This document shows, piece by piece, positions 4,333 through 4,405 of a DNA stretch of 8,718 bases. Every line of letters starts with the position of its first letter. The first letter of the stretch is position 1. Under the pieces are notes generated by a model. That model had not been told where the DNA came from. It worked only from the letters and a program-made list of their open reading frames with translations, and made no database searches. The stretch comes from a virus (lineage: Duplodnaviria > Heunggongvirae > Uroviricota > Caudoviricetes): the IMG/VR virus record IMGVR_UViG_2671180458_000006; one strand, given 5' to 3'. The translations under genes and the position numbers were made by a program.

Positions 4333-4405
4333 GCGGGTCCTCCTGGTGGGGTGGGCCTGAACACGGGGCGGGCGGCGCGGAAAAAAGCGCATTTTTGTGA
4401 TTTTA
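4333..4405 (+). other. Lambda-type cos-like site, copy 2 (direct repeat of 1796-1870)
   Basis: About 92% identical to copy 1 over ~75 bp: GGGTCCT at 4335-4341 and ACGGGGCGG at 4363-4371 with the same 28-bp spacing. It lacks one T in the cosN-like core (GGGCGGG-CGGCG versus GGGCGGGTCGGCG in copy 1). Weaker homology to the copy-1 flank continues for ~170 bp downstream. Confidence 0.55.

What the first reader, a model, noticed from the sequence alone, without database searches (positions are those of the whole stretch)
4333..4405. Second cos-like copy with a 1-nt deletion in the cosN-like core
A ~92% identical direct repeat of the cos-like element lies 2.5 kb downstream, again abutting a terminator T-run. 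It sits where cos is expected relative to the downstream terminase-W-portal genes (lambda order cos-Nu1-A-W-B). Its cosN-like core lacks one T relative to copy 1, which would shift the nick spacing, so the two copies may not be functionally equivalent. Homology to the copy-1 flank continues, more diverged, for ~170 bp, suggesting the whole cos/cosB-like region is duplicated.
Basis: seen in the sequence. Interest (0 to 1): 0.7.

Follow-up and report, generated by a model that had tools for sequence, protein, structure and literature searches.

The report
Second packaging site of a phage satellite
The repeat is a real lambda-type DNA-packaging (cos) site, but it belongs to a small phage satellite inserted into a prophage's terminase gene, not to that prophage; satellites of this family are already known to carry more than one cos site, and here the two sites copy the recognition sequences of two different phage groups.

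Summary
Window 4327-4404 repeats 1790-1870 (55/58 identical in the core) 2537 bp downstream. It follows a hairpin and a T6 run, and it has one base fewer in the cosN-like core.

The element is homologous to lambda cosQ-cosN. It does not serve the downstream terminase-W-portal genes. That terminase ORF is the 3' half of a prophage terL gene, split at codons 333-335 by a ~10 kb helper-embedded PICI satellite. Both cos copies lie inside the satellite and flank its capsid gene.

Copy 2 carries the consensus core (69 of 110 related sites outside the window). Copy 1's extra T is the rare variant, in a stretch whose length varies naturally among phages.

The two copies are not a simple duplication. 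Their cosB flanks are 66% identical to each other. Copy 1's flank is 92% identical to CP-1639-type phages and copy 2's is about 83% identical to VT1-Sakai-type phages. In 50 phage loci, these two flank types covary perfectly with two TerS DNA-binding-domain alleles.

Multiple cos sites in E. coli PICIs and helper-embedded PICIs are both published. This is a new member of a known kind. The untested idea it raises is that heterotypic cos sites broaden helper range.

The parts
4309..4332 (+). Intrinsic-terminator-like hairpin (GGCGGC-ACCA-GCCGCC) plus T6, at the end of the satellite's ClpP-protease/major-capsid gene. It abuts cos copy 2.
   Evidence: Fold gives dG -15.1 kcal/mol and z -4.05, with 0 of 200 shuffles folding as well. 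Sequence.
4335..4341 (+). cosQ-like heptamer GGGTCCT of copy 2.
   Evidence: Aligns with lambda GGGTCCT at bp 48473-48479. Intact in the roughly 29 position-2 sites and roughly 50 phage sites examined. cosQ is described as a highly conserved 7-bp site in PMC4669245.
4363..4380 (+). cosN-like core of copy 2: ACG|GGGCGGGCGGCG|CGG. The predicted 12-nt cohesive end is 4366-4377, placed by homology to lambda and not determined experimentally.
   Evidence: Alignment to lambda ACG|GGGCGGCGACCT|CG. The core is identical to that of the L001 prophage, CP-1639 and most phage sites.
4381..4530 (+). cosB-like flank of copy 2, of the VT1-Sakai type. It contains R3-like CGTCATCATCATCAT at 4407-4421, an A/T-rich spacer, an inverted R2-like AGATGATGAAGAAG at 4461-4474, and R1-like TCGACATCTTT at 4487-4497.
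   Evidence: 82-83% identical over 105 nt to the cosB of VT1-Sakai and of the L001 prophage, against 66% to copy 1's flank. BLAST hits to Stx phages cover 82-85% of the flank query. The R-site assignment is by inspection and by alignment with lambda R3.
4562..4684 (+). Truncated remnant (40 codons) of the conserved 93-aa last gene of the satellite. It starts where terS or rpp starts in phages and other PICIs.
   Evidence: The L001 homologue is 93 aa (L001:22562-22843). The window lacks about 470 bp relative to L001:22600-23090. No Pfam or PDB match.
4768..4777 (+). attR core of the satellite: TTCTTGGATG, against TTCTGGATG in the empty site. This is the junction with prophage terL.
   Evidence: Window 4768-8718 is 99.95% identical to L110:16110-20059, where terL is intact. 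attL and attR sequences of L001 are.
4775..5887 (+). 3' fragment of prophage terL (gpA-type nuclease domain). It is not a complete terminase gene.
   Evidence: RefSeq annotation reads 'terminase gpA endonuclease subunit, missing N-terminus'. The split lies at FWM 333-335 of a 707-aa TerL, between the GpA_ATPase (45-308) and GpA_nuclease (330-648) domains.
1772..1795 (+). Terminator-like hairpin plus T6 after the satellite's SSB gene. It abuts cos copy 1.
   Evidence: dG -18.6 kcal/mol and z -6.03.
1798..1843 (+). cos copy 1: cosQ GGGTCCT at 1798-1804 and cosN ACG|GGGCGGGTCGGCG|CG at 1826-1843, with the extra T at 1836.
   Evidence: The TC variant occurs in only 1 of 110 related sites outside the window, namely the helper prophage cos at L041:13657-13733.
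1845..1960 (+). cosB-like flank of copy 1, of the CP-1639 type. It contains R3-like CACCATCACCACCAC at 1873-1887 and R1-like TTCATCACC at 1948-1956.
   Evidence: 92% identical over 105 nt to phage CP-1639 cosB, which lies directly upstream of that phage's terS.
2191..4304 (+). The satellite capsid module enclosed by the two cos sites: a 75-aa ORF (2191-2418) and a ClpP-like prohead protease / HK97-type major capsid fusion (2415-4304).
   Evidence: Pfam CLP_protease 4e-33 and Phage_capsid_4 8e-55. Only about 51% aa identical to the phage homologues. Both cos sites were detected around it in the 30 or so related loci whose held DNA reaches both positions; 24 of these were used for the diversity comparison.
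1..1757 (+). Replication zone of the satellite: primase 3' end (8-805), iteron origin (about 806-1020, GGTGAACAGT repeats), an 81-aa ORF and SSB (1335-1757).

Best explanation
Copy 2 (4333-4405, with its flank to about 4530) is a complete lambda-type cos site (cosQ-cosN-cosB). It belongs to a ~10 kb helper-embedded phage-inducible chromosomal island (PICI). The island is integrated in, and co-oriented with, the terL gene of a lambdoid prophage.

The island makes no terminase and no Rpp-like adaptor. It is therefore presumably packaged when a helper phage's DUF1441-type TerS binds the island's phage-like cosB, and the gpA-type TerL nicks the adjacent cosN.

The island carries two co-oriented cos sites around its own capsid gene. 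Copy 2 sits after the capsid gene, in the slot that precedes terS or rpp in phages and in other PICIs. It mimics the VT1-Sakai-type cosB. Copy 1 sits after SSB and mimics the CP-1639-type cosB.

The two cosB types pair with two different TerS DNA-binding domains. The most likely role of the pair is to let the island be packaged by helpers of either specificity.

The one-base difference lies in the naturally variable right half of cosN. It is not a lesion of copy 2.

**Shown:** homology, location inside the island, the split terL, heterotypic flanks, and TerS-cosB covariation.
**Inferred:** that both sites are cut, and that each responds to a different helper.

The confidence given (0.6) is for the whole statement. 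That copy 2 is an island-borne, helper-type cos site I put at about 0.9. That the pair serves two helper specificities I put at about 0.4.
For: **1. Island and split gene.**
- L001 shows terS, then the 5' part of terL, then int, AlpA, Bro, Icd and primase, then SSB, cos, capsid gene, cos and orf93, then the 3' part of terL.
- The att core is TTCTGGATG.
- The empty site with intact terL is in L110, 99.95% identical to window 4768-8718.

**2. cos identity.**
- The element aligns to lambda cosQ/cosN.
- The same element lies between Rz and terS in about 50 phage loci.

**3. Heterotypic flanks.**
- Copy 1 against copy 2: 66%.
- Copy 1 against CP-1639: 92%.
- Copy 2 against VT1-Sakai and the L001 prophage: 82-83%.

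**4. Specificity pairs.**
- All 24 phage loci with cosB type 1 have a TerS N-terminus 98-100% identical to the CP-1639 allele and 53-55% to the other.
- All 26 phage loci with type 2 show the reverse.
- The TerS C-termini are 92-99% identical in both groups.

**5. The same integrase type is embedded in several helper types.**
- Type-1 helper: L084 plus L014, which are one contig.
- Type-2 helpers: L001, L041, L067, L076, L100.
- An mEp460-like helper: L024.

**6. The rule generalises.**
- L008: position 1 is 95% identical to a Qin-like prophage cosB, and position 2 resembles mEp460.
- L007: a Sakai-type site at position 1 plus two lambda-type sites.

**7. Flanks track phages while the capsid gene does not.** The flanks are 82-95% nt identical to phage cosB, but the enclosed capsid gene is only about 51% aa identical.

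**8. No adaptor.** No Rpp or TerS homologue was found in the island.

**9. Published precedent.** EcCICFT073 has two functional cos sites (PMC6092414; PMC6739421).
Against: - No experiment shows that either site is cut or that the island is packaged.
- In many close relatives the position-1 site has a mutated cosQ (GGGTCCT to AGGTACT) and altered cosN. cosQ is otherwise invariant in lambda-like phages (PMC4669245). Position 1 may therefore be decaying or serve only part of the cycle.
- EcCICFT073 lacks the position-1 site altogether, and deleting its cos2 increased transfer. A second site can therefore be a burden rather than a benefit.
- Termination of packaging is not cosB-specific. Two co-oriented sites should therefore yield some chromosomes with mismatched 12-nt and 13-nt ends.
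- In this particular genome the island looks immobile: orf93 and the region next to attR are deleted, and the att core has an extra T. The resident Qin-like prophage is defective, and its cosB is of a third type that matches neither copy.
Confidence: 0.6

Rival explanations
1. One reading: copy 2 is the prophage's own cos, in the lambda order cos-Nu1-A-W-B, serving the downstream terminase-W-portal genes.
For: It lies about 370 bp upstream of a terminase ORF that is followed by W-like and portal genes. Its core is identical to that of real phage cos sites.
Against: - There is no terS between cos and the terminase ORF.
- The terminase ORF starts at the att core and encodes only residues from about 335 to the end.
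- The intact version of this same prophage (L110) has its own, different cos about 700 bp upstream of an intact terL, and nothing like copy 2.
- In relatives, copy 2 always follows the island's capsid gene, whatever the island's integration site, including chromosomal sites such as cspD/clpS.
Confidence: 0.03
2. One copy is a non-functional relic. The pair arose when the capsid module was captured or duplicated together with a cos. Only copy 2, the consensus one, is used. Copy 1 is drifting.
For: - Across 24 two-cos modules, position-1 cosQ-cosN is four times more diverse (0.132) than position-2 cosQ-cosN (0.034). It is also about four times more diverse than its own cosB (0.031).
- Many position-1 alleles have lost the cosQ heptamer.
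- Position 1 never carries the plain consensus centre together with type-1 cosB.
- EcCICFT073 does without it.
Against: - In the window, copy 1 keeps an intact cosQ, the conserved CG dinucleotides at both predicted nick positions, and a cosB 92% identical to a phage group over 105 nt.
- Its cosB is conserved across islands (0.031).
- Position 1 sits at the mosaic boundary between the replication and capsid modules. Upstream diversity is 0.36, so part of its diversity comes from recombination rather than decay.
- The TC centre also occurs in a prophage's own cos (L041).
Confidence: 0.3
3. The second cos works against the helper rather than for the island. As an extra co-oriented cos inside the helper-island composite or concatemer, it misdirects initiation or termination. 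The helper then packages truncated or permuted genomes, which amounts to interference.
For: - The island is co-oriented with the late operon and lies inside the helper genome.
- Termination is cosB-independent.
- Copy 2 has the same cosB type as the surrounding prophage in L001.
- PICIs of this family interfere with helper packaging (PMC6739421).
Against: - The same cos pair is present in islands integrated at chromosomal sites away from any prophage.
- There is no direct evidence.
- One site would be enough for interference.
Confidence: 0.1

Closest known systems
cos1 and cos2 of the E. coli PICI EcCICFT073 (Fillol-Salom et al. 2018, PMC6092414; 2019, PMC6739421)
   Same: - Same island family: int-alpA-Icd-DUF4222-primase-ori-SSB-capsid gene-cos-...-93-aa ORF.
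- More than one cos per island, each with lambda-like cosQ and cosN.
- Window copy 2 occupies the same slot as the + strand cos of EcCICFT073: after the capsid-module terminator and before the rpp/terS slot.
   Different: - The EcCICFT073 sites are lambda-type (GGGCGGCGACCT). One of them is inverted. Their cosB is not phage-like and needs RppA.
- The window island has no Rpp.
- Both of its sites are co-oriented. Both have phage-like cosB, of two different types. One sits in a slot after SSB that EcCICFT073 lacks.
Helper-embedded PICIs (HE-PICIs; Tommasini, Mageeney and Williams 2023, PMC10111431)
   Same: [quoted passage not shown]
- Gene A (terL) is one of the reported target genes.
- The island carries its own homologue of a helper capsid gene.
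- A cos region shared with the helper at about 90% identity was noted for 11capE.
   Different: That paper describes one shared cos region. It does not analyse multiple cos sites or their cosB types. I could not verify from the text that the exact site here (FWM 333-335) is their A:Terminase_1:245/246 site.
Lambda / 21 / N15 packaging specificity (cosB paired with the TerS N-terminal winged helix; Feiss lab, PMC4669245 and PMC9026076)
   Same: - Two cosB variants covary with two TerS N-terminal variants, while TerL and the TerS C-terminus stay nearly identical.
- Variation in the right half of cosN is tolerated.
   Different: - TerS here is DUF1441-type, not Nu1-type.
- The specificity difference is inferred from covariation and has not been tested.
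- cosN varies in length (10 to 13 nt between the conserved CG dinucleotides) as well as in sequence.
SaPIbov4/SaPIbov5 (cos-packaged staphylococcal islands)
   Same: Satellites packaged through a helper-type cos site. SaPIbov4 is reported to have two putative cos sites (quoted in PMC6092414).
   Different: These are unrelated elements and hosts, and no sequence relation was tested here.

Membership tests
Lambda-type cos site (cosQ-cosN-cosB) | Conserved 7-bp cosQ (GGGTCCT) about 20-30 bp upstream of cosN | tested here: met
   GGGTCCT lies at 4335-4341 in copy 2 and at 1798-1804 in copy 1. Both align with lambda's heptamer.
Lambda-type cos site (cosQ-cosN-cosB) | cosN with a conserved left half (GGGCGG) and CG dinucleotides flanking both nick positions | tested here: met
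   Copy 2 reads ACG|GGGCGGGCGGCG|CG. Copy 1 is the same with one extra T in the right half. The criterion is taken from PMC4669245.
Lambda-type cos site (cosQ-cosN-cosB) | cosB with TerS-binding R repeats and an IHF site (R3-I1-R2-R1) at a fixed distance from cosN | tested here: inconclusive
   R-like repeats can be seen by eye (4407-4421, 4461-4474 inverted, 4487-4497). The flank is homologous to the region between cosN and terS in 26 phage loci. Binding was not tested.
Lambda-type cos site (cosQ-cosN-cosB) | Staggered nicking by terminase that yields cohesive ends | not testable with these tools
   Needs end sequencing of virion DNA or an in vitro nicking assay.
Gram-negative PICI (EcCICFT073-like) | Gene order int-alpA-(Bro/Icd)-primase-ori-SSB-late zone, 10-20 kb, unidirectional | tested here: met
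   The full island is in relatives L001 and L109 (about 10.4 kb). The window holds its right 4.77 kb. EcCICFT073 serves for comparison.
Gram-negative PICI (EcCICFT073-like) | Rpp adaptor that redirects helper TerS to an island-specific cosB | tested here: not met
   RppA (L010:25660-26094, which matches PDB 6HLK at 5e-31) has no tblastn hit in the window or in L001. The small ORFs have no PDB or Pfam hits. Rpp does not define all PICIs, only the EcCICFT073 subgroup.
Gram-negative PICI (EcCICFT073-like) | Helper-dependent induction, replication and high-frequency transfer | not testable with these tools
   Experimental.
Helper-embedded PICI (HE-PICI) | Integrated inside, and co-oriented with, a prophage late gene, with an att core repeat and a restorable target gene | tested here: met
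   terL is split at FWM 333-335. The intact target is in L110.
Helper-embedded PICI (HE-PICI) | Integrase belongs to the 11capE-related clade | not tested
   The integrase lies outside the window. The L001 integrase has Arm-DNA-bind_3 and Phage_integrase domains. It was not placed in the published phylogeny.
   No terS follows copy 2. The terL ORF is a 3' fragment. The prophage's real cos lies elsewhere.

The most novel reading that the evidence does not exclude
E. coli PICIs carry sets of two or three cos sites of different phage specificity as a 'bunch of keys'. Each cosB copies that of a different lambdoid terminase group: CP-1639-type, VT1-Sakai-type, Qin-like, mEp460-like, or lambda-type with Rpp. 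One island can then be packaged by several otherwise incompatible helpers without needing an adaptor.

On the same reading, the hypervariable centre of cosN at the post-SSB site records joining of cohesive ends from different sources, and cos acts as the recombination junction between island modules.

This would answer the question left open in Fillol-Salom et al. [quoted passage not shown]
Probability: 0.35. Interest if true: 0.55.

Novelty: new member of a known kind. Interest (0 to 1): 0.35.

Why it matters
The finding itself is largely explained by published work. PICIs with two functional cos sites, and PICIs embedded in helper late genes, are both described.

What the analysis adds is a testable pattern. 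In three island types, the cos sites of one island carry cosB flanks of different phage specificity groups. Each flank stays close to phage sequence while the neighbouring capsid gene has diverged to about 51% identity.

If each site answers to a different helper terminase, this would explain why these islands keep several cos sites. It would also explain how one island spreads among STEC/EHEC strains that carry many different lambdoid and Stx prophages.

There is a practical point as well. A cos-like repeat next to a terminase ORF cannot be taken as that phage's packaging site without first checking for an embedded satellite.

Tried and rejected
- **Prophage cos model.** Rejected on the split terL and the empty-site genome.
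- **Recent tandem or segmental duplication.** Rejected as the sole explanation, because each flank is closer to a different phage group than to the other copy.
- **Structured RNA.** No Rfam family reaches threshold anywhere in the window.
- **Rpp or TerS-like gene next to copy 2.**
  - The 93-aa ORF, the 75-aa ORF and the 81-aa ORF give nothing in Pfam or the PDB.
  - The L007 Nu1-like protein has no significant PDB sequence hit, although Pfam calls it Phage_Nu1.
- **Phage record termini as evidence for the cut site.** The mEp460 record ends about 30 nt before terS rather than at cosN. Its ends are therefore not informative.
- **Identity of the insertion sequence at the window end.** No match among the fetched loci. 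A BLAST search only showed that the same junction exists in four complete genomes. The IS3-family (IS911-like) assignment rests on my memory of the inverted repeat and on the neighbouring 'IS3 family transposase' annotation in L110.
- **First guess at the location of EcCICFT073.** It returned the icd prophage instead. The island was found in the next call.
- **A fuzzy-regex scan.** It timed out and was replaced by BLAST.

Full report
**1. The observation**

The window contains a direct repeat, 1772-1883 / 4309-4420, at a spacing of 2537 bp. From the T-run to the conserved GCGCGGAAA, the copies share 55 of 58 positions.

Each copy follows a strong hairpin plus T6. The hairpins fold at -18.6 and -15.1 kcal/mol, and none of 200 shuffles folds as well.

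Copy 1 reads ACG GGGCGGG-T-CGGCG CGG, with the extra T at 1836. Copy 2 reads ACG GGGCGGGCGGCG CGG at 4363-4380. Homology continues downstream at a lower level: 66% over the next 105 nt.

**2. What the surroundings are**

A search of complete E. coli genomes found the whole arrangement in O121, O157:H7 and other strains. The annotated region of the O121 relative L001 has this gene order:

- Prophage lysis genes, cos, a DUF1441 gene (the TerS equivalent), and a terL pseudogene 'missing C-terminus'.
- Then integrase, an AlpA-type HTH, Bro-N, Icd-like, DUF4222, primase, an 81-aa ORF and SSB.
- Then the ClpP-protease/capsid fusion and a 93-aa ORF.
- Then a terL pseudogene 'missing N-terminus', a W-like gene, portal and the prophage's own ClpP-capsid fusion.

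The two terL pieces meet at a short core, TTCTGGATG. This core encodes FWM at residues 333-335 of a 707-aa TerL, between the GpA_ATPase and GpA_nuclease domains.

Window 4768-8718 is 99.95% identical to a Qin-like defective prophage in strain FHI_NMBU_11 (L110). There terL is intact, and the same insertion-sequence junction truncates the capsid gene. That genome is the empty site.

The window therefore holds the right 4.77 kb of a ~10 kb satellite inserted into a prophage terL, followed by the 3' half of that gene. Both cos copies lie inside the satellite and flank its capsid module (2191-4304).

This configuration is published as a 'helper-embedded PICI', with gene A among the reported targets (PMC10111431).

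**3. Is it a cos?**

Yes, by homology. The element aligns with lambda's cosQ heptamer GGGTCCT and with cosN, ACG|GGGCGG...|CG.

The same sequence lies between Rz and the terS-terL genes in phages CP-1639 and VT1-Sakai. It occupies the same place in about 50 IMG/VR phage loci.

In L001, the prophage's own cos lies about 11 kb upstream of the island's copy 2. It sits in front of the prophage terS, and its core is identical to that of copy 2.

**4. The one-base difference**

I collected 110 related sites outside the window and typed the bases between GGGGCGGG and GGCGCGG:

| Centre | Count |
|---|---|
| C | 69 |
| CG | 18 |
| A | 17 |
| AGG | 3 |
| AG | 2 |
| TC | 1 |

- Phage sites carry C or CG. 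One prophage site has TC (L041).
- Island sites after the capsid gene carry C or CG.
- Island sites after SSB carry A, AGG, AG, CG, TC and other forms.

Copy 2 therefore has the consensus, and copy 1 carries a rare extra base.

[quoted passage not shown] The Feiss laboratory showed that natural variation is common there and does not measurably affect nicking. They also showed that cosQ and the CG dinucleotides at the nick positions are conserved, and that mismatched cohesive ends reduce viable yield only about four-fold (PMC4669245).

Length variants of 12 and 13 nt both occur in prophage cos sites. Where the nicks actually fall has not been determined for this phage group.

**5. The two copies are heterotypic, not a plain duplication**

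Identity over the first 105 nt after the core:

| Comparison | Identity |
|---|---|
| Copy 1 vs copy 2 | 66% |
| Copy 1 vs CP-1639 | 92% |
| Copy 2 vs VT1-Sakai | 83% |
| Copy 2 vs L001 prophage | 82% |

The TerS proteins of the two phage groups are 77% identical overall. Their C-terminal 95 residues are 93% identical, but their N-terminal 60 residues are only 55% identical.

In 50 phage loci the flank type and the TerS N-terminal allele covary without exception, 24 of one type and 26 of the other. TerL is about 100% identical in both groups. This is the lambda/21 pattern of packaging specificity.

**6. The pattern is general**

Both cos sites were detected around every related island capsid module whose held DNA reaches both positions, about 30 loci. 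This holds regardless of integrase or primase type. Other island types show the same principle:

- **L008.** The post-SSB site has a flank 95% identical to the Qin-like prophage cosB. The post-capsid site is mEp460-like.
- **L007.** This lambda gpE/gpD-type island has a VT1-Sakai-type site after SSB and two lambda-type sites, one of them inverted, around a Nu1-like gene. At least 80% of this module is present in 545 of 5426 complete genomes.
- **EcCICFT073.** It has only the two lambda-type sites around rppA. These are the published cos1 and cos2. Both are functional when cloned, and cos1 depends on RppA.

Islands with the same integrase are embedded in type-1, type-2 and mEp460-like prophages.

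The cos flanks stay 82-95% identical to phage cosB, while the island's capsid protein is only about 51% identical to the phage protein. This argues that the flanks are maintained or refreshed, not decaying.

**7. Points against full function of copy 1**

- Among 24 two-cos modules, the post-SSB cosQ-cosN segment has a mean pairwise difference of 0.132. Its own cosB has 0.031, the post-capsid cosQ-cosN has 0.034, and the capsid module has 0.012.
- Many relatives, including L001, have AGGTACT in place of GGGTCCT.
- Part of this diversity reflects the site's position at the mosaic boundary between replication and capsid modules, where upstream diversity is 0.36. The cosQ-side allele also tends to travel with the SSB allele.
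- A relic, or a site used only for initiation, cannot be excluded for those alleles. In the window itself, copy 1 has an intact cosQ and intact nick-flanking dinucleotides.

**8. State of this particular copy**

- Compared with L001, the window lacks about 470 bp. This removes most of the 93-aa ORF and a set of hairpins next to attR.
- The att core has an extra T.
- The resident prophage is a defective Qin-like remnant. Its capsid gene is cut by an insertion sequence, and its cosB matches neither island copy.
- The island here is probably not mobile without repair and without a foreign helper.

**9. Verdict**

Copy 2 is a genuine helper-type cos site of a helper-embedded PICI. It is not the cos of the downstream terminase genes, and it is not a damaged copy. 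Multi-cos PICIs and helper-embedded PICIs are both published, so this is a new member of a known kind.

The analysis adds one modest new idea. The several cos sites of one island mimic different helper specificities. This is a concrete and testable answer to a question the field has left open, but here it rests on comparative evidence only.

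Noticed in passing
window 806-1020: Dense array of direct and inverted GGTGAACAGT iterons between the primase gene and the 81-aa ORF. This is the expected PICI replication origin downstream of pri.
   Followed up: no
window 4600-4700, compared with L001:22600-23090: The window lacks about 470 bp present in the O121 relative. The deletion truncates the conserved 93-aa last gene to 40 codons. It also removes several short hairpins next to attR, which may be integrase arm or 'doubled motif' sites. The island is probably unable to excise here.
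   Followed up: partly
window 4768-4777: The attR core reads TTCTTGGATG, whereas the empty site (L110) and L001 read TTCTGGATG. That is one extra T inside the crossover core.
   Followed up: partly
window 8693-8718: The prophage's ClpP-capsid gene is cut by what looks like the terminal inverted repeat of an IS3-family element (TGTAGTGGCACACTAAATTTGGCCAC, IS911-like from memory). The identical junction occurs in four complete E. coli genomes, where an IS3-family transposase fragment follows.
   Followed up: partly
L001:11797-12807 and L001:23202-24326: In the O121 relative, the two terL halves flanking the island come from different lineages. The N part is 99% identical to VT1-Sakai TerL and the C part only 72% (Qin-like). 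The flanks are chimeric, possibly through recombination between island copies in two prophages.
   Followed up: no
L110:14425-14600 and L008:9795-9990: There is a third cosB type, with an R3-like GGCGGCGGCAGCATG, next to a 175-aa DUF1441 TerS in the Qin-like prophage. It is 95% identical over 105 nt to the post-SSB cos flank of island L008.
   Followed up: yes
L010:26294-26339 and L007:13005-13051 (minus strand): EcCICFT073 and its relatives carry one of their lambda-type cos sites in inverted orientation, between rppA (or the Nu1-like gene) and the 93-aa ORF. The consequences for the direction of packaging were not examined.
   Followed up: no
window 2415-4304 and 7357-8697: The window holds two paralogous ClpP-protease/capsid fusion genes, one from the island and one from the prophage. 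They are about 46-51% identical at the protein level, with short stretches at 75% nucleotide identity. Whether the island's protein redirects capsid size is unknown.
   Followed up: no
window 2124-2147: An inverted repeat, AATCAGA-N10-TCTGATT, lies in the A/T-rich region upstream of the 75-aa ORF. A similar region precedes the equivalent ORF in L008. It may be an operator of the island's late module.
   Followed up: no
window 1987-2005: A GC hairpin flanked by A-runs and T-runs (CAGGCGCAAAAAAAGCGCCC) closes the copy-1 cosB region. It is scored as a minus-strand terminator. The two plus-strand hairpin/T6 terminators next to the cos sites were not listed by that scan, although they fold strongly.
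   Followed up: partly
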